Shown: in pieces, positions 1 through 16,781 of the stretch
Layout of the letters: each line of letters opens with the position of its first letter
Position numbering within the stretch: position 1 is the stretch's first letter
Assembly (NCBI GenBank): GCA_000092065.1
Contig: CP000590.1
DNA: 64,000 bases
Origin: Ostreococcus lucimarinus
Lineage: Eukaryota
Strand: one strand, 5' to 3'
Notes under the pieces: generated by a model
What the model saw: only the letters and a program-made list of their open reading frames with translations
Told to the model about the DNA's origin: nothing
Databases searched by the model: none
Position numbers and translations under genes: made by a program

Positions 1-2755
1 GAGCCTGAGGGCGCATAACGAGGAAGCGATCGCGAAATATGCAAACTTTCCGGAGTTGGATAAGCCGGACGCGCACGTGGCGCGAGATGCGGATGGGTAC
101 TACGTCGTGAAGGAGGAGTGGCGAAAACCGACGAATCCCTTTGAAAAGTTGAAGCTCGCGAAGGATCCGATGCGAGAGTTGATCGGGATGAACGGGATCG
201 AGGAGATGGCCAAGGCGAGCGCGGCGGATTTCAAGGCTTGGGACGAGGCGTTGAATGACCCGGACGAGACCGATCAACGACCGAAGTGGGCGGGTTTGTT
301 TCATCGACGCAAAGGACACTACGGGCGATACATGATGCGACTCAAGCTTCCGAACGGACTCATTAACTCGACGCAGATGCGATATTTGGCGAGCGTGATT
401 AAAAAGTACGGCGAAGATGGGTGCTGCGACATCACGACGAGACAAAACATTCAGCTTCGTGGGGTTGAGTTGAAGGATGCGCCCGAAATCTTGCGCAAAC
501 TCGAAGAGCTCGGTATGTGCTCGTTGCAAAGCGGGTTGGACAACGTGCGCAACGCGACGGGGAACCCGCTCGCGGGTTTTGATCCGCAAGAAATCGTCGA
601 CACGCGACCTTACACGCTCGCCATTCAAGATTACGTCACCGGTGGTGGGCGCGGGAATCCAGCCATCGCTAACTTGGGGCGTAAGTGGAACGTGTGCGTC
701 GTCGGCAGCAGCGACTTTTTCGAGCATCCGGACATCAACGACTTGGCCTTCATTCCAGCGATGAAGGATGGCAAGTTCGGATTCAACATGATCGTCGGTG
801 GCTTCATATCTTCTCAGCGCGCAGCGGAGTCGGTCTCTCTCGATGCGTGGATCCCTGAGAACGAGCTTGTCGCCGCGACGCACGCCGTGTTGACGACGTT
901 TCGCGATTACGGCCATCGCGGCAACCGCCAAAAGTGCCGCATGATGTGGCTCATCGACGAGATGGGTTTGGAAACGTTTCGCACCGAAGTTGCGTCGCGC
1001 ATGCCAACGGGAGACTTGGCGCGCGGCGCCGAAGTGGATCTCATCGACCGAGAGTCTCCGCGACGCAGTTACATCGGCGTGCACGCGCAAAAGCAAGAGG
1101 GCTTGAGCTGGGTCGCCGCTGCCGTGCCGGGCGGACGTATGCAACCGGAAGATCTCGCGGAGATGGCTGATCTCGCGGACAAGTACGGCGAAGGTGAGAT
1201 TCGACTCACCGTCGAGCAAAACTTTATCATTCCCCACGTGCCGAACGATAAGATTGACGCCATTCTCCAAGAGCGTTTGTTTCAAGAGTACACGCCGTTC
1301 CCGGGCAAACTTGTGTCCAACATGGTGGCGTGCACCGGAAATCAGTTCTGCGGATTCGCGCAAATCGAGACGAAGCGACAAGCGCTCGAAATGGCGGAAC
1401 ACTTGGAAAGTTGCTTAGAACTTTCGAAGGACGTGCGCATGATTTGGACAGGTTGCCCGAACTCTTGCGCTCCGGTGCAAGTGGCGGACATTGGCCTCAT
1501 GGGCGCGCAGGTGAAGAATCCGACGGGCGAGAAGGGCATGGTACCAGGGGTGAACATCTTCATCGGTGGTACCGTCGGGCCGAACGGCCACTTGAAGGAA
1601 GCGCCAGAAATCGCAAAGGTCCCGTGCTCAGAGTTGAAGCCGGTTCTGGAACAGATTATGATTGAGAGGTTTGGCGCGACGCGCAAGGCGACGCCGACGC
1701 CGAATCCGGGGCGAGCGTCGCGCTGGAAAATCAACAAATCTGCGCAGTATACCAAGGGTGTCCCTAAAGCCATGGGTAAGGCGACGCACATTTGCACCGG
1801 ATGTGGTTACATTTATCAAGAGACGAAGAAGTTCGACGAGTTGCCGGATGACTACGTCTGTCCGTCGTGCAGCGCGCCGAAGTCCAAGTTTGAAGCGATG
1901 AAGCAGGAAGAGACGCCCACGAGCGCTCGCCCGGTCGTGGAGTACCCCGAAGGCACGCTCGCGACGCTGAAGAACGGCGAAACCGTTGAATTGAAGCTCG
2001 TTGAGAAGGAACAAGTGACGTCGAACACTGTACGCCTTCGATTTGAACTCCCGTCGCCGGAGCACATCCTCGGACTTCCCGTCGGGCAACACGTGACGGT
2101 GACCATCGACGGCGTGTCTCGTCCGTACACTCCGATCACGCGCGATGCGGACAAGGGTTTCATGGACCTTCTCGTGAAGATTTATGATCAAGGCGCGCTC
2201 ACGCAAAAGCTCAACGCCGTGGCCGTGGGATCTACCGTAGCGTTCGAAGGACCGAATGGGTTGGTGACGTACAGCGCTCGCGGCGAATTTTCTACGCGCA
2301 ATCCGGCGACGGGCTCTGTGGCGAAGAAATCATGCAAGAACATCGCCATGATCGCCGGTGGTACTGGCATCACCCCTATGCTTCAAGTCATTCGCCAAAT
2401 CTTCAACGATGTCGGGGACACGACGCGGGTCAACTTGTTATTCGCCAACGTCTCCTCGGCGGATATTCTCTTGAAGAAGGAGCTCGACGAGCTCGCGAGC
2501 GCGCACAAAAACTTGACGGTGCACTACGCGATCGACAAGGATGAACCAAACTGGAACGGCGAGGTTGGATACGTTTCAGAGGAAATGATCAAGAAGTGCG
2601 ACTTGCTGAAGCGAGGTGGCTTGATGGACAAATTGTTTTCATCCGCCGACGACACCGCGGTCCTCGTGTGCGGCCCGCCGGCGATGGTTGAGAAAGCCGT
2701 TGTGCCCGCGTTGGACGCACTGAATGTCTCTACAGATTCTCGAATTTTCTTTTAA
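1..2755 (+). CDS. NII: Nitrite reductase fused to a rubredoxin domain and an NAD(P)H cytochrome-b5-reductase-type FAD/NAD domain. The 5' end is cut by the window edge: the reading frame is open from nt 2, the listed M at 56 is a TTG, and the true start lies upstream.
   Basis: The N-terminal ~560 aa align along their length to plant ferredoxin-nitrite reductase (EKLKLAKDPM..., LFHRRKGHYGRYMMRLKLPNG, CCDITTRQNIQLRG, siroheme/4Fe-4S Cys cluster TGNQFCG...TGCPNSCA). A rubredoxin motif follows (CTGCGYIY...PDDYVCPSCSAPKSKFE), then a b5-reductase/NR-type flavin domain (RPYTPIT, GGTGITP, CGPPAM). The ORF is continuous to a stop at 2755. Confidence 0.9.
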   Translation, partial: SLRAHNEEAIAKYANFPELDKPDAHVARDADGYYVVKEEWRKPTNPFEKLKLAKDPMRELIGMNGIEEMAKASAADFKAWDEALNDPDETDQRPKWAGLFHRRKGHYGRYMMRLKLPNGLINSTQMRYLASVIKKYGEDGCCDITTRQNIQLRGVELKDAPEILRKLEELGMCSLQSGLDNVRNATGNPLAGFDPQEIVDTRPYTLAIQDYVTGGGRGNPAIANLGRKWNVCVVGSSDFFEHPDINDLAFIPAMKDGKFGFNMIVGGFISSQRAAESVSLDAWIPENELVAATHAVLTTFRDYGHRGNRQKCRMMWLIDEMGLETFRTEVASRMPTGDLARGAEVDLIDRESPRRSYIGVHAQKQEGLSWVAAAVPGGRMQPEDLAEMADLADKYGEGEIRLTVEQNFIIPHVPNDKIDAILQERLFQEYTPFPGKLVSNMVACTGNQFCGFAQIETKRQALEMAEHLESCLELSKDVRMIWTGCPNSCAPVQVADIGLMGAQVKNPTGEKGMVPGVNIFIGGTVGPNGHLKEAPEIAKVPCSELKPVLEQIMIERFGATRKATPTPNPGRASRWKINKSAQYTKGVPKAMGKATHICTGCGYIYQETKKFDELPDDYVCPSCSAPKSKFEAMKQEETPTSARPVVEYPEGTLATLKNGETVELKLVEKEQVTSNTVRLRFELPSPEHILGLPVGQHVTVTIDGVSRPYTPITRDADKGFMDLLVKIYDQGALTQKLNAVAVGSTVAFEGPNGLVTYSARGEFSTRNPATGSVAKKSCKNIAMIAGGTGITPMLQVIRQIFNDVGDTTRVNLLFANVSSADILLKKELDELASAHKNLTVHYAIDKDEPNWNGEVGYVSEEMIKKCDLLKRGGLMDKLFSSADDTAVLVCGPPAMVEKAVVPALDALNVSTDSRIFF

Positions 2756-3024: not shown

Positions 3025-3877
3025 TTACGCATATTGCGCTGCGGCGGCGTTTTGCTTCTTGTAATCGTACATCGTACCGGCAGTGGCGACGATGATAGAG
3101 AACGCGATGAAGAAGCTCATCGTGCCGACGAGCGCTTGCGGCAAGCGGTCGTAGGTGACGACTTCGAAGGTGCAAGAAGAATCGTCGCCGTATCGCACGT
3201 AGCCGCTGGAGTCCGATTCCAAGACTTGGATAAAGTACTTGGCCGGCGCGATGTTCAACGGGAGCGGGATGTCGACGTTACCAGTCGCCGACCCGCCCGT
3301 GATGCCCGCTTTGAGATAGTCGGCCTCGACCACGGTTTGCTTGCATCGCTTGTTCTTGTTGACGATGTCTTTCTTCTTGCGCCACGGCTTGGAGGCGAGT
3401 TCGGAGTCGTCGTAGCACAACTTCACCATCATCGTGTTCCCCGACGTCGTGGAAGCACCGGTCCACGCCACGTTGATGGAGTTCAAACCACCCTGCGCTT
3501 TCTACGAACGTGAAAAACAAATAATCAAGTCAGTCTTCGAATCACGAACGAAATCGCCAGCGTCGCCGCGCCCGACCCCCAAAGGACACTCGCGCCGGTC
3601 GAACGCTTATCCGCCCTCGCGTCGTCTCCGCCCGCGCGTCGTCCCCACGCCACCCACGCGTCCACTCGCGCGTCGAGCGCGCGCCCGAATGCGTTATTTC
3701 TCGCGCGGTCGCGCGCACACGCACCGAACCAGCCGCGCACGCCCCGCCGTCGATCGTCGTCGTCACGCCGAGCGTGTTCGACGACATCTCGCTGTACTTG
3801 GTGAACGCGTGCGCGCCGTCCGCGAGCATCGCCGTGGCGGCGAGACCACCGATCAAGAGCTTCTTCAATTCAACCAT
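3025..3877 (-). CDS. NAR2: NAR2/NRT3 high-affinity nitrate transporter accessory protein. Two exons, join(3025..3501, 3725..3877) on the minus strand, 209 aa.
   Basis: Exon 2 carries the NAR2 signature VKLCYDDSELASKPWRKKKD (plant KLCYA...WRKT) and a C-terminal TM helix SFFIAFSIIVATAG. Exon 1 encodes a signal peptide (MVELKKLLIGGLAATAMLADGAHA). The intron runs 3502..3724 with donor GTGCGTGTGCG, branch ACTGAC (minus strand 3534..3529) 25 nt before the AG and a polypyrimidine tract. An in-frame TAG sits just upstream of exon 2. Confidence 0.75.
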
Positions 3878-4249
3878 CGTCGTTCGTGCGTCGTTCGCGC
3901 GTCGTCGTCGTCGTCGCGGGCGCGTCGAGGAGTGTCGACATCGGCGCGACGCGCGGCGTTTCGGGACGCCAAGCGTCGCCAAAGGGCGACCGTTGGTGAC
4001 CCTTCGTTCCAAGCGTCACACGGCTAAACATCGTTTATATACGCGCGTCGACCCGGTTTATTTTATTAACTATTACGCGTACGCGTGTAAGTTGTATTTT
4101 TACCTTGAATACGTAAAAACACGATGAGGGTTTCGTGAATGTTTTATGCGTCGTCGCGACGGGACGCGACGCGGTGCGACGCCGCGCGTCACTCCACAGC
4201 GCGTCAGCGAGCACGCCGCGACCTCGAATCGCGACAGCGCACGCGCGAA
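3878..4249. promoter_or_regulatory. Bidirectional promoter shared by divergent NAR2 and NRT2. It holds an AT-rich core at about 4020-4140 with TATA-like cgtttatatacgcg and ttattttattaactatta.
   Basis: Only 372 bp separate the two ATGs (3877 minus, 4250 plus). It is an AT-rich island in otherwise >65% GC sequence. The same NAR2/NRT2 head-to-head arrangement is known from Chlamydomonas. Confidence 0.45.
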
Positions 4250-5958
4250 ATGGCGATCACTAAAGAATTCAATGTCCCCGTGGACAGGTGCGTGTGGTTC
4301 GAGGCGCGCGCGAACGTGGGGGGGGGTTAAAGCGACGACGATGCGTCGCGGTTGTGTCGAAACGACGTGGTCGAATCGAGCGCGTGTGCGGTCGCGCGCG
4401 ATGGCGACGCGGCGCTCGAACGCGTCGATAACGATGAAAGATATATTTGTTTATGCTTTCATGCCCGCGAGACTGACGTGTAACGCGCGGTGCCGTCGTA
4501 CGTGGCCACAGCGAGCACAAGGCGATGAAGCTGAACGTCTTCAGCTTTGATCGCCCGCACCACTTGTCCTTCCACATGTCCTGGTTGGGTTTCTTCATCT
4601 CTTTCGTCTCGACGTTCGCGGCGGCGCCGATGATTCCGGTGATTCGTGAAGACTTGGGTCTCACGAAGCCGCAGCTCGGGAACGCTGGTTTGGCGGCGGT
4701 GACGGGTACTATTATTTGCCGCGTGCTGATGGGTACGGTGTGCGACCTCATCGGCCCGCGACTCGGTTTGTCGGTTATTCTTTTGGCCACCGCGCCCTTC
4801 TGCTTCGCCATGGCCATGGTGCAAGGCTTCGAAGGTTTCCTGATCTGCCGTTTGGGCATCGGTCTGGGTCTCGCCACGTTCGTGGCGTGCCAGTTCTGGA
4901 TGTCTTGCATGTTCAACAGCAAGTGCGTCGGTCTCGCCAACGCGACCGCCGCGGGCTGGGGTAACTTGGGCGGCGGAGTCACGCAATTCTTGATGCCGGG
5001 CATCTACGCCATCTGCTACTCGGCGACCAACAGCCGTGCGTTCACTGCCTGGCGTTGGGCGTACATCTTCCCGGGCATGTGCCACACCGTAGTCGGTTTG
5101 ATGGTCATGTACCTCGGCCAAGATTTGCCGGATGGTAACTACAAGGTGCTCACGACTTCGGGCGCGCTCGAAAAGAAGTCCTCCATGAAGGTCAACTTGA
5201 TCGGCATGAAGAACTACCGCATGTGGTGCATGGTCGCCACCTACGGTTTCTGCTTCGGCGTTGAACTCACGATGAACAACATCGTCGCCGGTTACCTCTT
5301 TGATCAATTCGGCGTCTCCCTCTCTGTCGCAGGCGTGTTGGCGTCTTGCTACGGTATGATGAACTTGTTCGCCCGCTCCGTGGGTGGCATCATCTCTGAC
5401 TGGTCTTCTAACCGCTTCGGTATGCGAGGACGTCTTTGGACTTTGTGGTCCACCCAAACGCTCGAAGGTGTGCTGTGCATCTTCATGGGTCTCTCCAAGG
5501 ACAACTTGGGCGCCACCATCGCGTTCATGGTGTTCTTCTCCATTTGCGTGCAGGCGTCCGAAGGCGCTTCTTACGGTATCGTGCCGTTCATCTCCCGCCG
5601 CGCTCTCGGTGTCGTCTCTGGTTTCATCGGTGCTGGCGGTAACGCTGGTGCCACCATCGCCACCGCCGCCTTCTTCACCAAGGATTCCATTGAGACGTAC
5701 GAAGGTCTCCAGTACCTCGGTTACACCGTCATCGGCGTCACCGCTTTGGTCATCCCGATTCACTTCCCAATGTGGGGCTCCATGTTCTTCCCGGCATCCA
5801 AAACGGCCACGGAAGAGGACTACTACATTCACAACGAGTTCACTCCGGAAGAAATCAAAGCTGGTCTCGCCGCTCCGGTCCAAAAGTTCTGCAACAACTC
5901 TCGCAACGAGCGCCCGGTTTGGAAGCGCGAGCAAGATGCGGTTGAAGCCTCCGCGTAA
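4250..5958 (+). CDS. NRT2: NRT2 high-affinity nitrate/nitrite transporter (MFS nitrate-nitrite porter family). Two exons, join(4250..4287, 4512..5958).
   Basis: 12 TM helices and the AGWGNLGGG NNP signature. Exon 1 (MAITKEFNVPVD) splices so that the junction reads PVDSEHKAMKLNVFSF...HLSFHMSW, matching the conserved NRT2 N-terminus (PVDSEHKA...FHLSW). The intron 4288..4511 has donor GTGCGTGTGG and branch ACTGAC at 4472..4477, 32 nt before the AG at 4510-4511. Confidence 0.85.
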
Positions 5959-9154: not shown

Positions 9155-9937
9155 ATGTCGCGCGCGCTCGAGGACGACCACGGCTCGTTCGCCGTGATAG
9201 ATCTCGTCGCGCACCTGTACCGCGGCGGCGCGGAAGATCGAGGCGCGCTCGCGAAGATTTGGTCGCGGTACAGCGATGCGACGGTTTCAGAGCGGAAGAC
9301 GACAGGTTTCGAGATGGTGCGCATGCATCACGCGACGCTGACGAGGATGTTTCGAGACGGTGCGTGCGACACGCTCAATTTTCGCGAGCGCGACGCGCGT
9401 CGGGACCGAGGGCGCGCGGTCGAGGGACGGGACGCAAAACGGCGCGAGACGGGACGACGACGAGGACGGGCGAGCGGGACGCGACGGACCGACTGACGAC
9501 GACGACGCGTTCGAACGCGAAAAGACCCGGATGGGGATTACTTAGATATCGAAGACGTGCGCATGACGTGGGAAGAGTTCGTGGACGCGCTGAGAGACGC
9601 CACGGGGGCGTCGGCGGATGAACCGGCGTCGCCGGAGAACGCGAAGTCGTACGACGCGCTCGAACGACCGGTGATGCAAAGAAATCAATCGTTCTCGAAC
9701 TTGGCGAAGGATTTGGAGGAAGTCATCGCCGCCGCGCGCTCGCCCGGGACGAGCGCGGACAACACGCCCGAAGGTTCGACGCGTGGGATTCAGAGAATTT
9801 CATCCTCTGGGATGCTTTTGGGCATCGGCTGCTCGAGCCGCGAACCGTCGCTTCGAGGCGGCAACGCGTTTCACGCGGGCATGACCGTGCGCTCGGAAGA
9901 TTTGAAGAGTCGCCTCGAGAAGAACGCGACGCAGTGA
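9155..9937 (+). CDS. Hypothetical protein of 205 aa. Two exons, join(9155..9359, 9525..9937). Function unknown; it lies inside the Moco/nitrate cluster.
   Basis: Exon 1 has unbiased composition up to ...TLTRMFRD. The GTGCGTGCGAC donor at 9360 and the ACTGAC branch at 9492..9497 (25 nt before the AG at 9523-9524) join it in phase to the ORF continuing [16 protein letters not shown]... No recognisable domain. Confidence 0.45.
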
Positions 9938-10070: not shown

Positions 10071-11447
10071 ATGCCCGCCGAAACCGAAACCGCGCGCAAG
10101 TACCACATCGTCGGCGACTACGCCACCGCGCTGAACCCTCGAAACGACGCGCGAAGCGTGGAAAAATACGCGCGACACTTGGTGCTGCGTCCCCACGGCG
10201 CGCGCATCCAACGCGCGCTGTGCGCCGCGCGCGTCCTCGTCGTCGGCTGCGGTGGCCTCGGGTGCCCGTGCGCGATATATCTCGCCGCCTCGGGCGTGGG
10301 AACGCTCGGATTGTGCGACGCGGACGCGGTGGAGCTGAGCAACTTGCATCGACAGGTGGGACACTCGACGGCGGCGACCGGGACGTCGAAGGCGAAGTCG
10401 TTGGCGGCGCGGTGCGAGGGATTGAACGATGGCGTTCGAGTCGTGGTGCGAGAAACGTTCGCGACGACGGAAAATGTGATGGAACTTGTGGCGGGGTACG
10501 ACTTGGTGTGCGATTGTAGCGATAATCCGAGGACGAGGTATTTGTTGTCGGACGCGTGCGCGAGCGCGGAGATTCCGCTCGTGAGCGCGGCGTGCGTGGG
10601 ATTTGAAGGGCAGCTCACGGTGCTGTGTGGCACGCGAGCGTGGAATGATGACGATGAATCGTTTGGGGAGTTTGCGCCCGCACCGTGTTATCGATGTTTG
10701 TTTCCGACGCCGCCGGCGTCGGGAGACGCCGGGACGTGCGGGGCGTCTGGCGTGCTCGGACCGCTGCCTGGCATCGTGGGTACTTTTCAAGCGCTCGAGG
10801 CCATGAAAACGCTGGCTGGGGTAGGGGAGTCCATGCGAGGAAAAATGTTAACGTTCGACGCGTTGAGCGCGAGACCGACGATGACGTTGAACATGCGGGA
10901 ACAGCGAGACGCCGCGTGCGCGTGTTGCTCGACGTTGACGTCTCACGACGGACGCTTCGACGTCGCGACGTACGATTACGACGCTTTCTTATCGTCGACG
11001 CCGTGTCCGATGCGCGGAAGAAAAGCGAGACGCGGTGGCGTTGATGTGAACGCGCCGCCGAAGTTTGGGGCGCGAGAAATGCCGGAGCGCGGCGGCGGCG
11101 GCTGGCGACGCGTGGATGCGAAAGCGGCGACGACGTACGTCAAAGATGAGGGCGTCACCGTAGTCGACGTGCGTCCCAAGCACATGTACGACGCAGCGCA
11201 CATACCTGGATCTATTTCGTTACCAATAGAAACGCTCGACGTCGAGACGTGGAACGGCGCCGTGGGCGCGGCGGTTGAAGGATACCGTCTGTGCTTCGTG
11301 TGCGCGGGAGGCAACAACAGCCAAAGAGCGGCGCAATGGTTCGTGGACGCGAAAGTCGCCACCGCTGCCCCGGCGAGCGTCGTCGACGTTTGTGGCGGTC
11401 TCGCCGCGATGCGCGACGCGGGCTACGACGTCCCGAGACTCGATTGA
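10071..11447 (+). CDS. MOCS3: MOCS3/CNX5 adenylyltransferase-sulfurtransferase (MoeB/ThiF E1-like domain plus C-terminal rhodanese domain)
   Basis: ThiF nucleotide-binding motif VLVVGCGGLGCP, zinc CxxC pairs, and a rhodanese domain with active-site Cys in CFVCAGGNNSQRAAQW. ATG at 10071. Confidence 0.85.
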   Translation: MPAETETARKYHIVGDYATALNPRNDARSVEKYARHLVLRPHGARIQRALCAARVLVVGCGGLGCPCAIYLAASGVGTLGLCDADAVELSNLHRQVGHSTAATGTSKAKSLAARCEGLNDGVRVVVRETFATTENVMELVAGYDLVCDCSDNPRTRYLLSDACASAEIPLVSAACVGFEGQLTVLCGTRAWNDDDESFGEFAPAPCYRCLFPTPPASGDAGTCGASGVLGPLPGIVGTFQALEAMKTLAGVGESMRGKMLTFDALSARPTMTLNMREQRDAACACCSTLTSHDGRFDVATYDYDAFLSSTPCPMRGRKARRGGVDVNAPPKFGAREMPERGGGGWRRVDAKAATTYVKDEGVTVVDVRPKHMYDAAHIPGSISLPIETLDVETWNGAVGAAVEGYRLCFVCAGGNNSQRAAQWFVDAKVATAAPASVVDVCGGLAAMRDAGYDVPRLD

Positions 11448-11655
11448 TTAAAATTGTTTCAACGCGCGGCGAGCACTTTATTTCTACAACAACACGCCTA
11501 CGATTCCACGCGCGCTTGCACGATCTCCGGTCGTTCACCCTTGGATTCCGCGGTTTGCATCGTCGCGAGCGCCGCCTCGACGACGCCCTCGGTGAGTTCG
11601 CCGCTCGCGCTCATCGCGTCCACCACCTCCTGCGCCTCTTCGGGCGATTGCGAGT

Positions 11656-12339
11656 TCAGAACTTTGTAGTAATTCGAAAAGTCGCGGCGACGATCGCCCC
11701 ACCCACGATTCGCCGCCACCACCGTCCACGCCGCGGCTTCTCGCCCTTATCCGACGCGGCGTCGCGCGTCGAGAGCGCGACCTCCGCGACGACGTCCTCT
11801 TCCGACCGCCCCTGCGGGCATCCGTTCGCCTCGAGATATCGCAACACGCCCTCGCTCGCGCCGCCCGCGTACTTGACCCAAAAGTCTCTGTCTTTCGCCA
11901 ACCACGCCGGCACCGGCGACGCGCGCGTCGTCGTCTCGCGCTCCGTCTCCGCCTCCGTCTCCGCCTCCGCCTCCGCCTCCGCCTCCGCGTCGCCCTCGCG
12001 CGTCACCACCCCGATCTGAAAATCTCTCAGCTGCGTCCACGCCCGCGCGCTGTGAATCTCCTCGAACTCATCGCTCGCCTCTTTCCCGAGCGCCCGCGCG
12101 ATCGCCAGCGCCGTCGACACCTGCCCCGCGTTGTTGAATCCCGGGTGCGTCGTCGCGAACGCCGTGATGTCGAACACGCGCTCGCGCACCACGATCCATC
12201 CGTCCGCGAGGCGCGCGTGCGCCGCGACGTCCTCGCGCGTGTACTTTCGCCACCTCGCGCGCTCGTCGTCCGTCGGCGCGCGCCGGAGCGCGTCGACGAC
12301 GGCGAGGTCGACGGCGACGTCGCGCCCGGACGCGTGCAT
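11656..12339 (-). CDS. Cytochrome b5-domain protein with a C-terminal tail-anchor helix, transcribed divergently from nitrate reductase. The listed ORF extends to 12798 through R-rich sequence.
   Basis: Heme-binding b5 fold YTREDVAAHARLADGWIVVRERVFDITAFATTHPGF...DEFEEIHS with both His ligands. An (EA)n linker is encoded by a (CTCCGC)n repeat at about 11941-11990. C-terminal hydrophobic tail RRGRWWRRIVGGAIVAATF. The C-terminal frame is uncertain: an alternative frame (ORF 11498..11722) also looks protein-like. Confidence 0.55.
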   Translation of the reverse strand: MHASGRDVAVDLAVVDALRRAPTDDERARWRKYTREDVAAHARLADGWIVVRERVFDITAFATTHPGFNNAGQVSTALAIARALGKEASDEFEEIHSARAWTQLRDFQIGVVTREGDAEAEAEAEAETEAETERETTTRASPVPAWLAKDRDFWVKYAGGASEGVLRYLEANGCPQGRSEEDVVAEVALSTRDAASDKGEKPRRGRWWRRIVGGAIVAATFRITTKF

Positions 12340-12658
12340 CGTCGCGCCGTTCGAGCGCGGACGACCGGACGCGTCGTCGGCGGCGCGCGGACGCGCGGCC
12401 GCGCGCGCGCGGACGCGTCGCGCGTCGCGCGCGCGCGTCGCGCGTCGCGTCGTGGCGCGACGACGTCGACGGGCGCGAAGCGTCACTTTGGTAAAAAAGG
12501 AAAAAATGCGTATGGGCAAACAGTATGACGCTTCGGCGACGCTTGGAGATTCCGAAACGACTCGGTCGACGGCTGGCGTCGACGCGACGCGACGCGCACA
12601 ACGCGGCCCTCGCGCGGTCGACGCGGCGTCGCGAGACTCGAAGCGTCGTCGTCGAGTC

Positions 12659-14324
12659 ATGGCGAACGCCGTCGTCGCGATCGTCGCCGCGGGCGCGGGC
12701 GCGTTCGCGGGCAAGCTGCTCGACGGGAAAAAGCGCGAGACGTCGCGAGGCGCGGACGACGCGGACGACGTCGACTTTAAGACGGACGCGAAGTCCAACG
12801 TCGATCACGCGGCGGCGGCGAAAAAGCATCAGTACCTGGCGCAGAAGTACCCGGAGGTGGACGAGCGAGACTTGAAGACGCCGGATAATTGGGTGAAGAG
12901 GCATCCGTGCGTGCGAGACGCGAGGCGACGCGAACGCGGGACGACGAGGACGCGGCGAACGACGACGGCGCGCGTGACTGACGGTGGTTTGCGTCGATCG
13001 TGGTGATAGGAATTTGATTCGTCTGACCGGGAAACACCCGTTTAACGTCGAGGCGTCGCTTCCGGAGTTGTATGATTACGGATTCATCTCGCCGGTGAAC
13101 TTGCACATCGTGCGGAATCACGGCGCGGTGCCGAAGTGCGATTGGGACACGCACAAGATTAACATTTGTGGCAACGTCCCGAAACCGTTCGAGATCGGTA
13201 TGGACGAGTTGGTGAAAATGCCGAGCGACACGTTCCCGTGCTTGGTGGTGTGCGCGGGGAACCGTCGGAAGGAACAAAACTTGGTCAAGTCGTCGATTGG
13301 GTTCTCGTGGGGGCCGTGCGCCATCGGAAACACGTACTGGACGGGCGTACCGCTGCGAGTGTTGCTCAACAGAGCGGGCATTCATAAGCCCGGTCCGGGT
13401 GCGCGATACGTGTGCTTGGCTGGTCCGCAAAACGAATTGCCGAAGGACTACCCCGATCAAGACGGTGGTCCGGGATCGTACGGCACATCCATCGACATGG
13501 AAACCGCGCTCGATCCGACGTGCGATGTCATTGTGGCGTACGAACAAAACGGTGCCAAGCTTCACCCAGACCATGGATTCCCAGTGCGGGTGATCATTCC
13601 CGGTTACATCGGTGGGCGCATGATAAAGTTTTTGAAGGAGATTAAAGTCACCGACAGAGAGTCAAACAACTTTTATCACTTCAACGATAACCGCGTGTTA
13701 CCGCCGCCAGTTGACGCTGAGCGCGCGACCGAGGAGGGATGGTGGTTCAAGCCCGAGTTCATCATCAACCAACTCAACATTAACGGTGCCATCGCGTACC
13801 CGGCGCCCGAAGAAGTCATTCCCAAGTCGCAAAAGACGTACGCCTTCAAAGGTTACGCCTACTCTGGCGGCGGTCGCAAGGTCATTCGCGCCGAGCTTTC
13901 CTTCGATCAAGGCTTGAGCTGGGAATTGAGTGATATTCACACTCGCGAAGAACCGCGATGGGCCGATTTCAGCTCCGGTGACAAGGCCAGGCACTGGTGC
14001 TGGTGCATGTGGACTCTCGAAGTGCCGATTGAGAAGCTCCTCGACAAAAAGTGCGTCGAAGTGTGCTTCCGCGCCGTCGATCAATCCATGAACAAAATGG
14101 ACGAGCGCCCGACGTGGAACGTCATGGGTATGTTGAACAACCCGTGGTACCGCGTCCGCATCCACCACACGCCCACGGGCGACGTTCGCGTGGAGCATCC
14201 GTGCATCGCCGGTCCGACCCCCGGCGGCTGGATGCAAAAGATGGCGGCTAAGGAACCCACCGGAGAACTTCTCTGGGGCTGGGGCGGCCAAGGCACGCCG
14301 GCCGCGCCCCCGAGAGAAGAATAA
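12659..14324 (+). CDS. NIA: Nitrate reductase, Mo-molybdopterin and dimerisation domains only. Two exons, join(12659..12906, 13010..14324), 520 aa. It stops in hinge 1 with no cytochrome-b5, FAD or NADH domains.
   Basis: NR-specific motifs TPDNWVKRHP|NLIRLTGKHPFN (splice junction), Mo-ligand Cys in LVVCAGNRRKEQNLVKSSIGFSWG, and the dimerisation domain WWFKPEFIINQLNING...YAFKGYAYSGGG...WNVMGMLNNPWYRV...GGWMQKMAAKE, then a stop after about 30 more residues followed by an AT-rich 3' UTR. Intron 12907..13009 with donor GTGCGTGCGAG and branch ACTGAC at 12977..12982. Confidence 0.8.
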
Positions 14325-14485: not shown

Positions 14486-14767
14486 ATGGATCTCATATTC
14501 ATCCTCCGTCAATACATCGGCATCGTCCTCTCCATGGCCGCCTTCGCCGGCTTCGCCTTCTGCACCAAACTCGAGCGACGCTTCGACCTCGACCAAACCA
14601 AAATCATTCACGTCTCCGTCGGTCTCGCCGTCGTCGGCCTGCTGTTCCACGAACTGCGCCCGTACAAGCGACAGGCTGGATTGACGTTTAGCAAAGAGCA
14701 GGCCGAGGAGGAGTGGAAGGCGCGCGAGGAGGAGATCGCCGCGGCGAAGACGAAGAAGAAAAAGTAA
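14486..14767 (+). CDS. Small hypothetical membrane protein (93 aa, two hydrophobic helices, Lys-rich tail)
   Basis: A real ATG with unbiased composition, sitting between the NR 3' UTR and the kinase gene. No recognisable family. Confidence 0.3.
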   Translation: MDLIFILRQYIGIVLSMAAFAGFAFCTKLERRFDLDQTKIIHVSVGLAVVGLLFHELRPYKRQAGLTFSKEQAEEEWKAREEEIAAAKTKKKK

Positions 14768-14987: not shown

Positions 14988-16781
14988 ATGGGATGCGCCG
15001 CGTCCTCCGCGAGCGCGTCCGCGCCCGCGAGCGCGCTCGCGCTCGTCGACTTCAACGCGCGATTCGCGGACGAGTACGTCGTGCGGGAGAAAATCGGCGT
15101 CGGACAGCAAGGGACGGTGTACCTGTGCGAGGACGCGGAGACCGGGACGACGCGCGCGATGAAGGAGACGCACATCGGGGTGTTCGGCGCGAACGCGAAG
15201 CGACGAGAGGCGTACTGCGAGATTGAATTGCTGTCGCAGATGCGACATCCGAACGTGGTGAGGATGGTGAAGGCGTACCAGACGAGCGCGGAGGTGCAGG
15301 TGGTCATGGAACACGCCGGGCGAGACACGTTGTTGACGTACCTCGTCGCTCTGGACGACGCCGAGGGGATGACGGAGGAAGAAAAGATGCACATTAAACA
15401 TGAATTGATTCGGCAGTTGGTGGACGCGGTCGCGCACGTGCACTCGAGGGATGTGGTGTTTCGGGATTTGAAGCACGAAAACGTCATGGTCACGAGCGAC
15501 GACGATTTGAGAAACGCGCAGATTAAGCTCGTTGATTTCGGTCGCGCGGCGTCGCTGCGCCGGGAAGATCGACTGAATAATCAGCCACCTCTCGGGACGT
15601 CGTTATTTCAAGCGCCCGAAGTAGAAGAGCGTCGAGAGTATGGACAAGCGGCGGATATGTGGGCCGTCGGCGTCTTCGTTTACTTTTTAGTCACGGGGCA
15701 GATGCCGTTCGAGCACACCGTGGCGGGGCTTTACAAGGTGCTGCGAGGAGAATATGAACCCATGGAAGAGTCAATAAATAAGCACGCGCGCAATTTGGTG
15801 GCTAAGCTTCTCGTGCTCGACCCGGCGAAACGAATCAACGCTGCTCAAGCGAGCACGCATCGATTCTTGCGGCAGAGAAACGCCGCGCACGTGCACGTCG
15901 GCGAGGGCGACGCGCTCAGAGTGCCGAAACACATGGAAAAAGCGGCAAAGAGACAACTCCGAGCGCTCGTGATGCAGGACAGTCTGGAGCTGCACACGGT
16001 GGGATTGCTCGCGGAGAAGCTCACGCCCGAGGATTTGAAGACGCTTCGGCGTTGGTTACGCATGAAGGCGGAAATGTCTGTGCGCGGAGGAGTGGCGAAC
16101 GCGCGCGAAAAAAATGCATCTCATAGTATCTCTCAGCGACAGTCTCCGGATGCTTCAATCCGAGCGGGTCACACGTACACCGACGAACTCCAGGCACACG
16201 TGGCGCTCAACGCGTTGTACAATGAAATGACGAAGGATCAAGGGAGTGAGTCCAACAGTAGAGAAGTGAGCTTCCATGGCGGCGCACTTACGAAAACGCA
16301 GTCGTACCAGAAGCTCACGGAAGCACTGGAAAATTTAGAAGAAATGAGTTCTGGTGACGAAGCCGATGTGCACAGGCCGTCTCCGCCAAAGAAGATTAGC
16401 AAAAGCTCGCTGAGCGACGCCGCGCGGCAAGAGTCCGCACAAAAGACTACTGGCACGAGTGATATCGCTACAAGCCGCAGTTTCGTCGGCTACGCGCATC
16501 AGAGCGGAATGTGTACGGTGGATGAGCTCATCACTGCTTGCATTAGCGCTGGCCTTCAATCCGTGGCGGACGAGTTGCAAACCGTTCGCGACGATTTGAA
16601 AAAAGAACGCTTGGCGAAGCTCGCGGCGACGGGCGCGGATACGCAGACGCAGAACGAGAGCGTCCTTCTCGACATCATGCTCTTCAGATACGAAGACTTA
16701 CTTGCGAAGGTCGAGAACGCGCACTTAGACCAAGTAAAGGACTGGTCAGTTCGAGCGGGAGTGATGGAGAACGGGCTGTAG
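14988..16781 (+). CDS. Ser/Thr protein kinase (CAMK/CDPK-related catalytic domain) with an N-terminal MGCAAS myristoylation/palmitoylation motif and a long non-catalytic C-terminus
   Basis: Kinase subdomains GVGQQGTVY...AMK, HRDLKHENVMV, DFG, APE. ATG at 14988. No EF hands. Confidence 0.8.
   Translation: MGCAASSASASAPASALALVDFNARFADEYVVREKIGVGQQGTVYLCEDAETGTTRAMKETHIGVFGANAKRREAYCEIELLSQMRHPNVVRMVKAYQTSAEVQVVMEHAGRDTLLTYLVALDDAEGMTEEEKMHIKHELIRQLVDAVAHVHSRDVVFRDLKHENVMVTSDDDLRNAQIKLVDFGRAASLRREDRLNNQPPLGTSLFQAPEVEERREYGQAADMWAVGVFVYFLVTGQMPFEHTVAGLYKVLRGEYEPMEESINKHARNLVAKLLVLDPAKRINAAQASTHRFLRQRNAAHVHVGEGDALRVPKHMEKAAKRQLRALVMQDSLELHTVGLLAEKLTPEDLKTLRRWLRMKAEMSVRGGVANAREKNASHSISQRQSPDASIRAGHTYTDELQAHVALNALYNEMTKDQGSESNSREVSFHGGALTKTQSYQKLTEALENLEEMSSGDEADVHRPSPPKKISKSSLSDAARQESAQKTTGTSDIATSRSFVGYAHQSGMCTVDELITACISAGLQSVADELQTVRDDLKKERLAKLAATGADTQTQNESVLLDIMLFRYEDLLAKVENAHLDQVKDWSVRAGVMENGL

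What the first reader, a model, noticed from the sequence alone, without database searches (positions are those of the whole stretch)
1..16781. Physically clustered nitrate assimilation, molybdate uptake and Moco biosynthesis genes
Within 17 kb the window carries NII, NAR2, NRT2, MOT1, CNX2 (MoaA), MOCS3/CNX5, a cyt b5, NIA, plus a small unknown gene, a small membrane protein and a protein kinase. This is a eukaryotic metabolic gene cluster covering substrate import, both reduction steps, molybdate import and two steps of Moco synthesis and sulfuration. The two unknown small genes (9155..9937 and 14486..14767) and the kinase are embedded in it and are candidates for cluster-associated functions. 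Plant NR is controlled by kinase phosphorylation of hinge 1, which this NR lacks, so the kinase may act on another target.
Basis: partly seen in the sequence, partly recalled or inferred. Interest (0 to 1): 0.6.

Follow-up and report, generated by a model that had tools for sequence, protein, structure and literature searches.

The report
Ostreococcus nitrate cluster hides split reductase
The window holds the already published nitrate and molybdenum gene cluster of the tiny marine alga Ostreococcus. The gene read as nitrate reductase is really a second, shortened copy that stays next to its own cytochrome b5, a kinase and two small unknown genes across related algae, and I found no paper that describes this.

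Summary
The cluster is real. It is the chromosome-10 nitrate/Mo cluster published for O. tauri (NAR1-NIA-NII-NAR2-NRT2-MOT1-CNX2-CNX5). The window comes from O. lucimarinus or a near-identical strain and starts inside NII.

The canonical five-domain NIA lies just upstream of base 1. The gene at 12659..14324 is a paralogue, here called NR2, with only the Moco and dimerisation domains. It keeps the nitrate-type active site. It shares a WGWGG hinge motif with a full-length Prasinococcus NR, so it arose by losing the heme and FAD domains.

NR2 stays linked to four other genes in Ostreococcus, two Bathycoccus-like lineages and Micromonas pusilla:
- a tail-anchored cytochrome b5;
- an N-myristoylatable CaMK-like kinase;
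- a 93-aa membrane protein ending in KKxx;
- in Ostreococcus and M. pusilla, the "unknown" gene 9155..9937.

In Pseudoscourfieldia, NR2 also sits in the nitrate cluster. The unknown gene is one spliced gene of 205 aa. Its O. tauri orthologue peaks with NIA/NII/NRT2 and is phosphorylated on a conserved RxxS site.

Best reading (inferred): a split, membrane-anchored nitrate reductase fed by the neighbouring b5 and controlled by phosphorylation. The cluster is known. I found no description of the NR2 module.

The parts
2..2755 (+). NII, nitrite reductase fused to rubredoxin and a cytochrome-b5-reductase-type FAD/NAD domain ('NIRFU'). About 70 N-terminal codons are cut off by the window edge.
   Evidence: Pfam NIR_SIR, NIR_SIR_ferr, Rubredoxin, FAD_binding_6 and NAD_binding_1. 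The full gene is 987 aa in contigs L001-L006. The C-terminal part matches CYB5R3 at E 3e-59 and the maize NR FAD domain only at 3e-39. The fusion was described in PMC5344333.
3025..3877 (-). NAR2, the accessory protein of NRT2. Exons 3877..3725 and 3501..3025, intron 3724..3502. The product is 209 aa with a signal peptide and a C-terminal TM segment.
   Evidence: PF16974:NAR2 on the same gene in L001-L006. Splice model with a GTGCGTG 5' site and an ACTGAC branch motif.
4525..5958 (+). NRT2, high-affinity nitrate transporter, 477 aa.
   Evidence: Pfam MFS_1. The exact protein is found on 24 contigs. It is 52% identical to the NRT2 in the Pseudoscourfieldia nitrate cluster.
6123..7550 (-). MOT1, molybdate transporter, 475 aa.
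   Evidence: Pfam MFS_MOT1, E 1e-60.
7843..9078 (-). CNX2 (MoaA-type radical SAM enzyme, first step of Moco synthesis). Probably 411 aa, starting at 9078. The ORF itself runs on to 9324.
   Evidence: Pfam Radical_SAM plus Mob_synth_C. Called as 411 aa in L001-L006. Start coordinate.
9155..9937 (+). Gene X, one spliced gene of 205 aa. Exons 9155..9359 and 9525..9937, intron 9360..9524. It has an N-terminal helical domain and a disordered C-terminal half. The C-terminal half carries two conserved phi-x-R-x-x-S-x-x-x-phi motifs ([23 protein letters not shown]) and SLRGGNAF. It starts 76 bp from CNX2, on the opposite strand.
   Evidence: Intron with GTGCGTG and ACTGAC motifs. The M. pusilla orthologue has no intron there and aligns straight across the junction (51% identity, E 1e-60). 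Family alignments A2/A3. The O. tauri orthologue ostta10g00980 is co-regulated with NIA/NII/NRT2. It is also detected as a protein, with the phosphopeptide RNES*FNQLAR.
10071..11447 (+). CNX5/MOCS3, adenylyltransferase/sulfurtransferase for MPT synthase, 458 aa.
   Evidence: Pfam ThiF (E 9e-67) plus Rhodanese.
11517..11681 (.). 165-bp insertion absent from all six near-identical metagenome contigs. It changes the last roughly 10 residues of the cytochrome b5 tail.
   Evidence: blastn breakpoints. Sequence comparison. It is unique within the window and has no GT..AG ends on either strand.
11656..12339 (-). Tail-anchored cytochrome b5, 227 aa in the window. It consists of a heme domain (HPGF...EIHS, with an 8-residue insertion between the two heme-ligand His), an acidic (EA)n linker, a conserved PxWLxxDRDFWVxYxGG..VLRYLxxxGxPQ region and a C-terminal hydrophobic tail. 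Its start is 319 bp from the NR2 start, on the opposite strand.
   Evidence: Pfam Cyt-b5. PDB matches. Family alignment A5. Hydropathy of the tail 2.0. Orthologues lie next to NR2 in L012, L014, L016 and L017.
12659..14324 (+). NR2, a truncated nitrate-reductase paralogue of 520 aa. Exons 12659..12906 and 13010..14324, intron 12907..13009. It has an N-terminal hydrophobic segment (residues 3-22), then a Moco domain and a dimerisation domain. It ends 11 residues after a WGWGG hinge motif. There is no heme or FAD/NAD domain.
   Evidence: Pfam. Splice model. 46% identity to the canonical NIA. Pichia NR 2bih at E 3e-103. NR-type residues Asn (FNDNRV) and Met/Met (WNVMGM). Phylogeny. The WGWGG motif is shared only with the full-length Prasinococcus NR.
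14486..14767 (+). Small membrane protein of 93 aa. It has an N-terminal TM segment, a conserved HE[LM]RPY motif and a C-terminal KKxx end.
   Evidence: The exact sequence equals XP_001419926.1 of O. lucimarinus. Orthologues in M. pusilla (E 7e-13) and just downstream of the b5 gene in L014 and L016, with a weaker match (E 0.085) at the same position in L012. Hydropathy.
14988..16781 (+). CaMK-group protein kinase of 597 aa. The N-terminus is MGC (a myristoylation/palmitoylation-type motif). The catalytic loop reads FRDLK. The C-terminal regions are conserved. There are no EF hands.
   Evidence: Pfam Pkinase. Best PDB matches are CASK, DAPK, CDPK and CaMK. Orthologue alignment A1. M. pusilla orthologue. 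The O. tauri orthologue ostta10g01020 is annotated 'CAMK-like' and is seen as a protein and a phosphoprotein.

Best explanation
The window carries the 3' two-thirds of the known Ostreococcus nitrate/molybdenum supercluster. To that is attached a conserved module for which I found no description.

Shown:
- The gene order NII-NAR2-NRT2-MOT1-CNX2-geneX-CNX5-b5-NR2-small93-kinase matches the O. tauri chromosome-10 order.
- The canonical NIA and NAR1 lie just upstream of the window.
It descends from a full-length green-algal NR that lost its heme and FAD/NAD(P)H domains. It keeps the Mo-ligand Cys, both substrate Arg and the Asn/Met/Met triad that separates nitrate reductases from sulfite oxidases.
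- NR2 stays linked to the same cytochrome b5, CaMK-like kinase and small KKxx membrane protein in four Mamiellales lineages, although gene order and orientation have been shuffled. Gene X is linked as well in Ostreococcus and M. pusilla.
- In Pseudoscourfieldia, NR2 sits inside the nitrate cluster.

Inferred mechanism: NR2 is the catalytic subunit of a split nitrate reductase. Electrons would pass from NAD(P)H through a separately encoded cytochrome-b5 reductase (not identified) to the neighbouring tail-anchored b5, and then to the Mo centre. There nitrate is reduced to nitrite, or nitrite to NO. The logic is that of the mARC/Cyb5/Cyb5R system. All the parts look membrane-attached:
- an N-terminal hydrophobic segment on NR2;
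- a tail anchor on the b5, replaced by a CaaX end in Pyramimonas;
- an MGC N-terminus on the kinase;
- a KKxx membrane protein, which points to the ER.

The kinase and gene X would form the control layer. Gene X is nitrate-cluster-co-expressed and is phosphorylated on an RxxS site of the type CaMK/CDPK/SnRK1 kinases prefer.

My confidence by layer: cluster identity about 0.95; NR2 as a truncated but functional NR paralogue about 0.85; b5 as its electron donor about 0.5; kinase/gene X as its regulators about 0.35. The single figure of 0.55 is for the statement as a whole.
For: Cluster identity:
- Pfam assignments.
- The published O. tauri order and the locus-tag order with annotations.
- The 93-aa protein is an exact match to O. 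lucimarinus XP_001419926.1.

Canonical NIA off-window:
- Contigs L001-L006 match the window at 99.0-99.7%. Three of them (L001-L003) reach far enough upstream to carry a 939-967-aa five-domain NR on the opposite strand to NII, and L002 and L003 also show NAR1.

NR2 is NR-type:
- Pichia NR 2bih scores E 3e-103, against about 1e-60 for sulfite oxidases.
- The engineered chicken SO variants 3r19/3r18 carry N (and M) at the aligned positions and outscore wild-type SO.
- The query has FNDNRV and WNVMGM where SO has NDYKGF and WNLRGV.

NR2 arose by domain loss:
- In an NJ tree rooted on chicken SO, the NR2 clade (bootstrap 91) is sister to the full-length Prasinococcus NR (bootstrap 100), inside the NRs.
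- Among 120 NR homologues, the hinge motif G(E/H)L(L/N)WGWGGxGxPA occurs only in NR2 proteins and in the Prasinococcus NR. The Prasinococcus protein continues for 386 more residues into its b5 and FAD/NAD domains. NR2 proteins stop 7-35 residues after the motif.

NR2 is under constraint:
- 63-87% identity from Ostreococcus to Pseudoscourfieldia and Pyramimonas, including an MMETSP transcript.

Conserved linkage:
- L012/L013 and L014-L016: NIA(-) NR2(+) kinase(-) b5(+) small93(-).
- M. pusilla CCMP1545: NIA(-) small93(+) kinase(-) geneX(+) NR2(-) b5(+).
- Pseudoscourfieldia: NR2-NAR1-NIA-..-NAR2-NRT2-NII.

The b5 family is narrow. There are 99 hits in 5.8 billion proteins. The named ones are all prasinophyte green algae, and the heme domain has a distinctive signature.

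Membrane signals.

Gene X:
- Orthology.
- Co-expression with NIA/NII/NAR2/NRT2 in O. tauri.
- Protein detected and phosphosite RNES*F mapped.
Against: - No experiment links NR2 to the b5, the kinase or gene X. The partnership rests on conserved adjacency alone.
- No cytochrome-b5 reductase is in the module. The only such domain nearby is fused to NII, which has been predicted to be plastid-targeted.
- In Micromonas commoda-like contigs (L007-L009), in L010 and in Pseudoscourfieldia, no b5 or kinase lies within 10 kb of NR2.
- Chloropicon has the b5 but no NR2 appeared among the best NR hits.
- Bathycoccus prasinos has gene X at an unlinked locus.
- In the O. tauri infection data set, the presumed NR2 locus tag (ostta10g01010) is absent from the differentially expressed list. 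The b5 and the kinase change at only one time point, so they are not tightly co-regulated with the core nitrate genes.
- I found no protein or transcript evidence for NR2 in Ostreococcus itself. The supplementary files held were cut.
- From memory, not checked here: O. tauri NIA knock-outs (Lozano et al. 2014) cannot grow on nitrate. If so, NR2 does not replace NIA in bulk assimilation.
- In the window, the b5 tail is shortened by a 165-bp insertion.
- The N-terminal segment of NR2 is only borderline hydrophobic (1.66) and is less so outside the Mamiellales.
Confidence: 0.55

Rival explanations
1. One reading: the window holds a complete pathway cluster whose NIA is an unusual NR lacking hinge 1. 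The cytochrome b5, the kinase and the two small genes are loosely associated passengers.
For: All the named domains are present. The NR-like gene has NR-type catalytic residues.
Against: A separate five-domain NIA lies just upstream of the window in contigs that are 99.0-99.7% identical to it, and also in O. tauri. The in-window gene is a distinct paralogue clade, 46% identical to NIA. The 'passengers' stay linked to that paralogue in four lineages despite rearrangement.
Confidence: 0.05
2. The Moco-plus-dimerisation protein is a plant-type sulfite oxidase. It sits in the cluster only because it also needs Moco.
For: The domain architecture is the same as plant SO, with no heme and no FAD. JGI names homologues with a generic molybdopterin-enzyme label.
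Against: Sulfite oxidases score 40 or more orders of magnitude worse than NR. The SO substrate residues Tyr322, Arg450 and Val452 are replaced by Asn, Met and Met, which are the substitutions carried by the better-scoring chicken SO variants 3r18/3r19. From my own knowledge, those variants were engineered to gain nitrate-reductase activity. The protein nests inside the NR clade and shares a hinge motif with a full-length NR.
Confidence: 0.03
3. NR2 is a decaying remnant of a duplicated NR, and its neighbours are linked to it by chance or by hitch-hiking with the nitrate cluster.
For: The protein cannot draw electrons from NAD(P)H on its own. It was annotated only as 'predicted protein, partial' in O. 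lucimarinus. It is not in the O. tauri differentially expressed list. Reviews count one NR per Mamiellales genome.
Against: The reading frames are intact, and identity is 63-87% across at least three prasinophyte orders. All catalytic residues are invariant and the intron is correctly spliceable. There is a Pyramimonas transcript. Against the population contigs there are 3-5 nucleotide differences and only 1 amino-acid change, which is weak evidence. The same partners recur in rearranged orders.
Confidence: 0.05
4. The NR2 module is functional but does not serve assimilation. It makes or removes nitric oxide, either by nitrite-to-NO reduction at the Mo site or by re-reducing nitrate made from NO by a globin. 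Its output feeds the kinase/gene X signalling pair, which tunes the canonical nitrate genes.
For: In one GC-74% Micromonas-like genome a globin gene directly follows NR2 (L010). An NR homologue with an inserted globin domain exists (P0100). Chlamydomonas NR works with THB1 and with ARC in NO turnover. The module contains a kinase and a nitrate-co-regulated phosphoprotein. From memory, NIA knock-outs of O. tauri do not grow on nitrate, so NR2 is not a back-up assimilatory enzyme.
Against: The globin adjacency is seen in one lineage only. No NO data exist. NR2 itself is not among the genes regulated with the nitrate cluster.
Confidence: 0.25
5. The kinase and gene X regulate the canonical pathway (NIA, NRT2/NAR2 or NII) and have no special tie to NR2. 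The b5 serves other enzymes.
For: Gene X is co-expressed with NIA/NII/NRT2, not detectably with NR2. Gene X is unlinked to NR2 in Bathycoccus prasinos. In every case where the kinase is near NR2, it is also near NIA.
Against: The kinase and the b5 flank NR2 directly in every Mamiellales locus where they are linked at all. The b5 and NR2 share a short head-to-head intergenic region in both Ostreococcus and M. pusilla. The canonical NIA has its own heme domain and needs no free b5.
Confidence: 0.2

Closest known systems
Ostreococcus tauri chromosome-10 nitrate/molybdenum cluster (Derelle et al. 2006, summarised in Sanz-Luque et al. 2015, PMC4620153; McDonald et al. 2010, PMC2944026)
   Same: The genes and their order NII(+Cytb5R)-NAR2-NRT2-MOT1-CNX2-...-CNX5 are the same. 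The O. tauri locus tags ostta10g00930..01020 continue with unnamed product, MoeB, cytochrome b5 and kinase, in the window's order.
   Different: The published cluster stops at CNX5 and counts a single NR per genome. The gene between CNX2 and CNX5, the b5, NR2, the 93-aa protein and the kinase are not discussed as part of it in any paper I could search.
Eukaryotic assimilatory NAD(P)H nitrate reductase (EUKNR; Pichia angusta Mo domain 2BIH/2BII; plant NIA1/NIA2)
   Same: The Moco and dimerisation domains match at E 3e-103. NR2 has the Cys ligand in CAGNRRKEQN, both substrate Arg, and the NR-specific Asn and Met residues. It sits phylogenetically inside the NR clade.
   Different: NR2 has no cytochrome b5 domain and no FAD/NAD(P)H domain, so it cannot be a self-sufficient NAD(P)H:nitrate reductase. 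It has an N-terminal hydrophobic segment instead of the acidic N-terminal extension. It ends just after a hinge-1 remnant.
mARC / cytochrome b5 / cytochrome b5 reductase three-component system (outer mitochondrial membrane)
   Same: The proposed logic is the same: a membrane-anchored Mo catalytic subunit without redox partner domains of its own, supplied by a tail-anchored b5 and a separate flavoprotein. mARC also reduces nitrite to NO (papers found; the rest is my own knowledge).
   Different: mARC has a MOSC-domain Mo site, not the sulfite-oxidase fold. Here the partnership is inferred from gene adjacency only, and the reductase is unidentified.
Plant-type sulfite oxidase (1OGP)
   Same: The two-domain architecture is identical (Moco plus dimerisation, no heme).
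   Different: The substrate pocket is NR-type and the sequence similarity is much lower (E 3.5e-56 against 2.6e-103). NR2 branches within the NRs.
Control of plant NR by CDPK/SnRK1 phosphorylation of hinge 1 and 14-3-3 binding
   Same: The kinase belongs to the same broad group (CaMK/CDPK-SnRK-like). The phospho-acceptor motif phi-x-R-x-x-S-x-x-x-phi is of the same type.
   Different: The motif is not in an NR. It is in a separate 205-aa protein, and in the kinase's own tail in the Bathycoccus-like lineages. The kinase has no EF hands. No 14-3-3 site was looked for or found.
NR variants with exchanged partner domains (raphidophyte NR with an inserted truncated haemoglobin; Chlamydomonas NR-THB1 and NR-ARC pairs)
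   Same: These show that the NR Mo domain and its electron-transfer partners can be recombined. A globin gene lies directly after NR2 in one Micromonas-like genome.
   Different: Those systems keep a full NR diaphorase. NR2 has lost it.

Membership tests
Published Mamiellales nitrate/Mo gene cluster | Gene content and order NII-NAR2-NRT2-MOT1-CNX2-CNX5, with NAR1-NIA upstream | tested here: met
   Pfam. Near-identical contigs show NAR1 and NIA upstream. Order as in O. tauri.
Published Mamiellales nitrate/Mo gene cluster | Coordinated expression of the members | tested here: inconclusive
   From O. tauri data only. NAR1, NIA, NII, NAR2, NRT2 and ostta10g00980 (gene X) share one profile. MOT1, CNX2, CNX5, the b5 and the kinase change at a single time point. 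NR2 is not listed.
Eukaryotic assimilatory nitrate reductase (EUKNR holoenzyme) | Moco-binding domain with Cys ligand, plus dimerisation domain | tested here: met
   Pfam E 6e-52 and 6e-44. Alignment to 2bih includes CAGNRRKEQN.
Eukaryotic assimilatory nitrate reductase (EUKNR holoenzyme) | Nitrate-type substrate pocket (Asn in place of SO Tyr322; Met in place of SO Arg450 and Val452) | tested here: met
   FNDNRV and WNVMGM align to NDYKGF and WNLRGV of chicken SO. Both are conserved across the NR2 clade.
Eukaryotic assimilatory nitrate reductase (EUKNR holoenzyme) | Cytochrome b5 heme domain in the same polypeptide | tested here: not met
   No Cyt-b5 hit. The protein ends 11 residues after the WGWGG motif. 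The next downstream gene on the same strand is the 93-aa protein.
Eukaryotic assimilatory nitrate reductase (EUKNR holoenzyme) | FAD and NAD(P)H-binding domains in the same polypeptide | tested here: not met
   No FAD_binding_6 or NAD_binding_1 hit in NR2 or in any of about 20 clade members.
Eukaryotic assimilatory nitrate reductase (EUKNR holoenzyme) | Nitrate-reducing activity | not testable with these tools
   Needs an enzyme assay.
Sulfite oxidase (plant type) | Two-domain Moco plus dimerisation architecture without heme | tested here: met
Sulfite oxidase (plant type) | Sulfite-binding residues (Tyr322, Arg450 in chicken numbering) and placement in the SO clade | tested here: not met
   The residues are Asn and Met. 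In the SO-rooted tree NR2 lies inside the NRs.
Three-component Mo-enzyme/b5/b5-reductase system (mARC-like logic) | Separately encoded, membrane-anchored cytochrome b5 dedicated to the Mo subunit | tested here: inconclusive
   A tail-anchored b5 is adjacent in four lineages and head-to-head with NR2 in two of them. It is not adjacent in three others. No interaction data exist.
Three-component Mo-enzyme/b5/b5-reductase system (mARC-like logic) | Separate NAD(P)H-cytochrome b5 reductase | tested here: not met
   None in the module. The only CYB5R-type domain nearby is fused to NII. The rest of the genome could not be searched.
Three-component Mo-enzyme/b5/b5-reductase system (mARC-like logic) | MOSC-type Mo domain | tested here: not met
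   NR2 has the sulfite-oxidase-family fold. The resemblance is in logic only.
CDPK/SnRK-type NR kinases | CaMK-group catalytic domain with intact catalytic residues | tested here: met
   Best PDB matches are CASK, DAPK, CDPK and CaMK. The Gly loop, the Lys in AMKE, DFG and APE are present. The catalytic loop reads FRD instead of HRD in all orthologues. The loop Lys is Gln in the two Bathycoccus-like lineages.
CDPK/SnRK-type NR kinases | EF-hand calcium-binding domain (CDPK), or phosphorylation of NR hinge 1 | tested here: not met
   No EF-hand Pfam hit in the C-terminal half. NR2 has no hinge Ser region. The kinase's target is unknown.

The most novel reading that the evidence does not exclude
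Prasinophyte green algae run a second nitrate-reducing system that is naturally 'un-fused'. It would consist of a membrane-anchored NR Mo subunit (NR2) supplied by a dedicated tail-anchored cytochrome b5. It would be switched by a dedicated lipid-anchored CaMK-like kinase through the phosphoprotein gene X, and it would sit at the ER or another cytosol-facing membrane. It would act in nitrate sensing or NO turnover rather than in bulk assimilation. This would be a new architecture for eukaryotic nitrate reduction. It would also be a living example of reversal of the domain fusion proposed to have created EUKNR (PMC6400420).
Probability: 0.3. Interest if true: 0.75.

Novelty: new variant of a known kind. 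Interest (0 to 1): 0.55.

Why it matters
Ostreococcus, Bathycoccus and Micromonas are among the most abundant marine picoeukaryotes. Their nitrate use matters for ocean nitrogen and carbon budgets. Reviews list one NR per genome for these algae.

A conserved second Mo subunit with its own b5, kinase and phosphoprotein would mean that part of their nitrate or NO biochemistry has been missed. It would also give a natural test case for how the three modules of eukaryotic NR work when separated.

It gives a concrete candidate function to four 'hypothetical' genes. One of them (ostta10g00980) is already among the most strongly nitrate-cluster-co-regulated genes in O. tauri and is a rhythmic phosphoprotein.

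Gene targeting by homologous recombination is available in O. tauri, so the predictions can be tested directly.

If the inference is wrong, the finding reduces to a known gene cluster plus a corrected annotation.

Tried and rejected
1. Is gene X an EF-hand protein? The loop [11 protein letters not shown] looked calcium-binding. There is no Pfam hit. The AlphaFold model of the O. tauri orthologue is a helical bundle with a disordered tail, and it has no Foldseek match in the PDB below E 0.1. A profile search of 1.84 billion representatives found only 41 family members and no annotated relative. The function stays unknown.

2. Was gene X split off from, or fused to, the kinase? The SLRGGN[AS]F and RxxS motifs of gene X recur in the kinase C-terminal tail of the GC-43% and GC-50% lineages. 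But Bathycoccus prasinos has a separate full-length gene X at an unlinked locus. I therefore keep only 'shared motifs', not a fusion argument.

3. My first splice model for gene X (intron to 9545, 198 aa) was wrong. The family alignment showed seven missing residues. The corrected acceptor is at 9524.

4. Did the FAD/NAD domain lost by NR2 end up on NII? No. The NII C-terminus is closer to CYB5R3 (E 3e-59) than to NR FAD domains (3e-39).

5. Is the free b5 the released NR heme domain? Inconclusive. It scores 37-51 bits against NR heme domains and 33-34 bits against ordinary b5 fragments.

6. Is NR2 a pre-fusion relic of NR evolution? Rejected by the tree and by the shared hinge motif.

7. Is the 165-bp insertion an intron or a repeat? 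It has no GT..AG ends on either strand, is unique in the window, and is unrelated to the three introns.

8. Do the co-regulated promoters share a motif? The k-mer comparison gave only CG-rich words found everywhere. AAACGACG is shared by the four core regions, but that could be chance.

9. Population dN/dS against the metagenome contigs has too few differences to be informative.

10. I looked for expression or protein evidence for NR2 (presumed ostta10g01010) in three O. tauri data sets. Nothing was found, but the stored files were cut.

11. The rest of the window up to 43 kb holds unrelated genes, so the cluster ends at the kinase.

Full report
**What is in the region**

- 2..2755 (+): a nitrite reductase fused at its C-terminus to a rubredoxin and an FAD/NAD reductase domain. 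Its 5' end is cut by the window edge.
- 4525..5958 (+): NRT2.
- 6123..7550 (-): MOT1.
- 7843..9078 (-): a MoaA-type CNX2.
- 10071..11447 (+): a ThiF plus rhodanese CNX5/MOCS3.
- Within 11656..12798 (-): a cytochrome b5.
- 12984..14324 (+): a protein with only the Moco-binding and dimerisation domains.
- 14988..16781 (+): a protein kinase.

NAR2 is on the minus strand in two exons. Beyond the kinase, up to 43 kb, the genes are unrelated: a phosphatase-family protein, a sulfotransferase, another kinase, an RCC1 protein, a Sec7 protein, FtsH and others. The cluster therefore ends at 16781.

**Whose genome, and what lies outside the window**

An exact look-up of the NRT2 protein returned six contigs (L001-L006) that match the window at 99.0-99.7% over 12-16 kb. 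The 93-aa protein at 14486..14767 is identical to O. lucimarinus CCE9901 XP_001419926.1. So the window is O. lucimarinus or a very close strain.

The contigs that extend upstream show two genes that the window lacks. One is a 939-967-aa nitrate reductase with all five domains, on the opposite strand to NII. The other is a formate/nitrite transporter (NAR1). This matches the published O. tauri cluster NAR1-NIA-NII-Cytb5R-NAR2-NRT2-MOT1-CNX2-CNX5 (Derelle 2006, quoted in PMC4620153). The cluster as such is therefore real, highly non-random and already known. The NII fusion is also known, as 'NIRFU' (PMC5344333).

**The gene called NIA is a truncated paralogue**

With its 103-nt intron removed (GT..AG), the gene at 12659..14324 encodes 520 aa. 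I call it NR2. It is 46% identical to the canonical NIA of the same locus.

It is a nitrate reductase, not a sulfite oxidase.
- The Pichia NR Mo domain scores E 3e-103, against about 1e-60 for sulfite oxidases.
- The best-scoring sulfite oxidases are the engineered chicken variants 3r19 and 3r18. They carry the substitutions that the query has naturally: FNDNRV against NDYKGF, and WNVMGM against WNLRGV. From my own knowledge, those variants were made to confer nitrate-reductase activity.
- The Mo-ligand Cys and both substrate Arg residues are present.

A database search found a tight clade of such two-domain proteins, 495-576 aa long and 61-87% identical. They occur in Mamiellales metagenomes, in Pseudoscourfieldia marina and in a Pyramimonas transcriptome.

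In a neighbour-joining tree (368 columns, 100 bootstraps, rooted on chicken SO), this clade is monophyletic (91). It is sister (100) to the full-length NR of Prasinococcus, and it lies inside the full-length NRs.

Decisively, all NR2 proteins end 7-35 residues after a motif G(E/H)L(L/N)WGWGGxGxPA. Among the 120 best NR homologues, that motif occurs otherwise only in the Prasinococcus NR. There it is followed by 386 more residues that include the heme and FAD/NAD domains. NR2 therefore arose from a full-length NR by loss of its electron-transfer domains. It is not a relic of the state before the domains fused. The deep branching order, including where the canonical Mamiellales NIA belongs, is unsupported in my tree.

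**A conserved module around NR2**

I fetched the loci of NR2 homologues and of the b5 homologue.
- Two Bathycoccus-like lineages (L012/L013, GC 43%; L014-L016, GC 50%): NIA(-) NR2(+) kinase(-) b5(+). An exon of the 93-aa protein lies just downstream of the b5 on the opposite strand.
- Micromonas pusilla CCMP1545 (L017): NIA(-) small93(+) kinase(-) geneX(+) NR2(-) b5(+). An RWP-RK/NLP-type regulator lies a few genes further on.
- The window and O. tauri: geneX(+) CNX5(+) b5(-) NR2(+) small93(+) kinase(+).

The kinases are 39-47% identical, including in their C-terminal regions. The b5 proteins are about 56% identical. The same genes have thus stayed together through several inversions.

In Pseudoscourfieldia, which belongs to a different class, NR2 sits at the end of the nitrate cluster next to NAR1 and NIA. 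No b5 or kinase lies within 10 kb there.

In Micromonas commoda-like contigs NR2 has left the cluster and stands alone. In a GC-74% relative it is followed by a globin gene.

**The partners**

*Cytochrome b5.* It has both heme-ligand His residues, with an unusual 8-residue insertion between them. It also has an acidic linker, a second conserved region and a hydrophobic C-terminal tail. In Pyramimonas the tail is replaced by a CaaX end. The family is narrow: 99 hits in 5.8 billion proteins, and the named ones are all prasinophyte green algae.

*Kinase.* It belongs to the CaMK group. It starts with MGC or MGxC in all five orthologues examined and has no EF hands.

*The 93-aa protein.* It has an N-terminal TM segment and ends in KKxx in all four orthologues, which is the form of an ER-retrieval signal.

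*NR2.* In the Mamiellales it begins with a moderately hydrophobic Ala/Gly-rich stretch followed by lysines.

All the parts therefore look membrane-attached.

**The 'unknown small gene'**

The two ORFs at 9155..9496 and 9557..9937 are one gene.
- An intron at 9360..9524 starts with GTGCGTGCGA, like the NR2 and NAR2 introns. It carries the same ACTGAC branch motif.
- The M. pusilla orthologue, which has no intron there, aligns across the junction (E 1e-60).
- The product is 205 aa and belongs to a family confined to the Mamiellales.
- It has a confidently modelled helical N-terminal domain with no structural relatives, and a disordered tail.
- The tail holds two near-invariant motifs of the form phi-x-R-x-x-S-x-x-x-phi, plus SLRGGNAF. 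Similar motifs occur in the kinase tail of the Bathycoccus-like lineages.

Published O. tauri data bear directly on this gene.
- The gene between CNX2 and CNX5, ostta10g00980, shows the same dawn-peaking expression and the same repression during virus infection as NAR1, NIA, NII, NAR2 and NRT2.
- MOT1, CNX2, CNX5, the b5 and the kinase change at one time point only.
- Its peptides [24 protein letters not shown] and RNESFNQLAR match homologue P0295, which confirms the orthology. The second peptide is phosphorylated on the Ser of the predicted motif.
- The kinase orthologue, annotated 'CAMK-like', is also detected as a protein and a phosphoprotein.

**How it most likely works**

Shown:
- a catalytically complete NR Mo subunit without electron-transfer domains;
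- conserved linkage to a dedicated b5, a kinase, a small membrane protein and, partly, gene X;
- co-expression of gene X with the nitrate genes, and its phosphorylation.

Inferred:
- NR2 receives electrons from the neighbouring b5, which is reduced by an unlinked b5 reductase. This makes a split nitrate (or nitrite-to-NO) reductase on a cytosol-facing membrane.
- The kinase and gene X form its control layer, or link it to the canonical pathway.

Weak points:
- There is no reductase in the module.
- The linkage is lost in some lineages.
- Chloropicon has the b5, but no NR2 was detected there.
- NR2 does not appear among the co-regulated O. tauri genes.
- I have no expression evidence for NR2 in Ostreococcus itself.
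- From memory, NIA knock-outs fail to grow on nitrate. That argues for a non-assimilatory role.

**Comparison with what is known, and novelty**

The cluster up to CNX5 and the NII fusion are published. Reviews count one NR in each Mamiellales genome. A broad study of NR evolution does not mention a truncated prasinophyte paralogue. Nine literature searches, including searches by accession and locus tag, found no description of NR2 or of its module. The library lacks most subscription journals, so this absence is not proof.

I class the finding as a known cluster that contains a new variant of a known enzyme kind. Overall interest is moderate. It would be higher if the split-enzyme mechanism is confirmed.

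Noticed in passing
window 11517..11681: A 165-bp insertion is absent from all six 99.0-99.7%-identical metagenome contigs. It replaces the end of the cytochrome b5 tail: ...AIVAATFRITTKF* in the window against ...AIVAASARGIVGVLL* in the contigs. This may weaken the membrane anchor in this strain. It is unique in the window and has no intron-like ends.
   Followed up: partly
window about 11990..12030 (b5 linker): The acidic (Glu-Ala/Glu-Thr)n linker of the cytochrome b5 varies by in-frame indels of 6-18 nt between the window and the population contigs.
   Followed up: no
window 3502..3724 (-), 9360..9524 (+), 12907..13009 (+): All three introns in the region begin with GTGCGTG. Each carries (G)ACTGAC 22-35 nt before the 3' AG. 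This looks like a strict splice-site and branch-site code that can be used to find introns in this genome.
   Followed up: partly
L010 11888..12304 (GC-74% Micromonas-like contig, ERZ28548082): A 138-aa globin gene lies directly downstream of the NR2 homologue on the same strand. This recalls NR-haemoglobin partnerships in NO turnover. It was seen in one lineage only.
   Followed up: no
L017 14694..18407 (Micromonas pusilla CCMP1545, GG663738.1): A 1237-aa GAF_NLP/RWP-RK/PB1 regulator (NLP/NIT2-like) lies about 4 kb from the NR2-b5 pair. The Sanz-Luque review mentions this factor as lying along the nitrogen cluster.
   Followed up: no
L011 12964..16098 (Pseudoscourfieldia marina CP150406.1): The canonical five-domain NIA of this alga is very divergent. 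It is about 30% identical to NR2 and forms a long basal branch in the tree. Unrecognised introns in the called product may contribute.
   Followed up: no
proteins P0034, P0073, P0097: Other truncated NR forms exist outside the prasinophyte NR2 clade. P0034 (490 aa) has a hydrophobic N-terminus and stops after GGWM. P0097 (608 aa) has an N-terminal TM segment, the Mo domains and a b5-like end, but no FAD domain. In the tree they fall near stramenopile and other algal NRs. Domain loss from NR may therefore be recurrent. Some of these may be fragments from short contigs.
   Followed up: no
outside the window, upstream of NAR1 (O. tauri ostta10g00900; L002 1..419): Another 'unnamed product' just beyond NAR1 shares the strong nitrate-cluster expression profile in O. 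tauri. It is a further uncharacterised cluster member.
   Followed up: no
window 14988..16781 and orthologues (alignment A1): The kinase catalytic loop reads FRD instead of the usual HRD in all orthologues. The loop Lys (DLK) is Gln in the two Bathycoccus-like lineages, which raises the question of whether those copies are fully active.
   Followed up: partly
window 9079..9154, 3878..4524; L002 420..714, 4684..5267: The 8-mer AAACGACG occurs in all four intergenic regions that drive the strongly co-regulated genes (CNX2/geneX, NAR2/NRT2, NAR1, NIA/NII). It does not occur in the five other intergenic regions compared. This could be chance in such CG-rich DNA.
   Followed up: partly
window 20558..22072 (-) and 18767..20440 (+): A second protein kinase and a sulfotransferase-domain protein lie a few kb beyond the cluster. 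There is no evident link to nitrogen metabolism.
   Followed up: no
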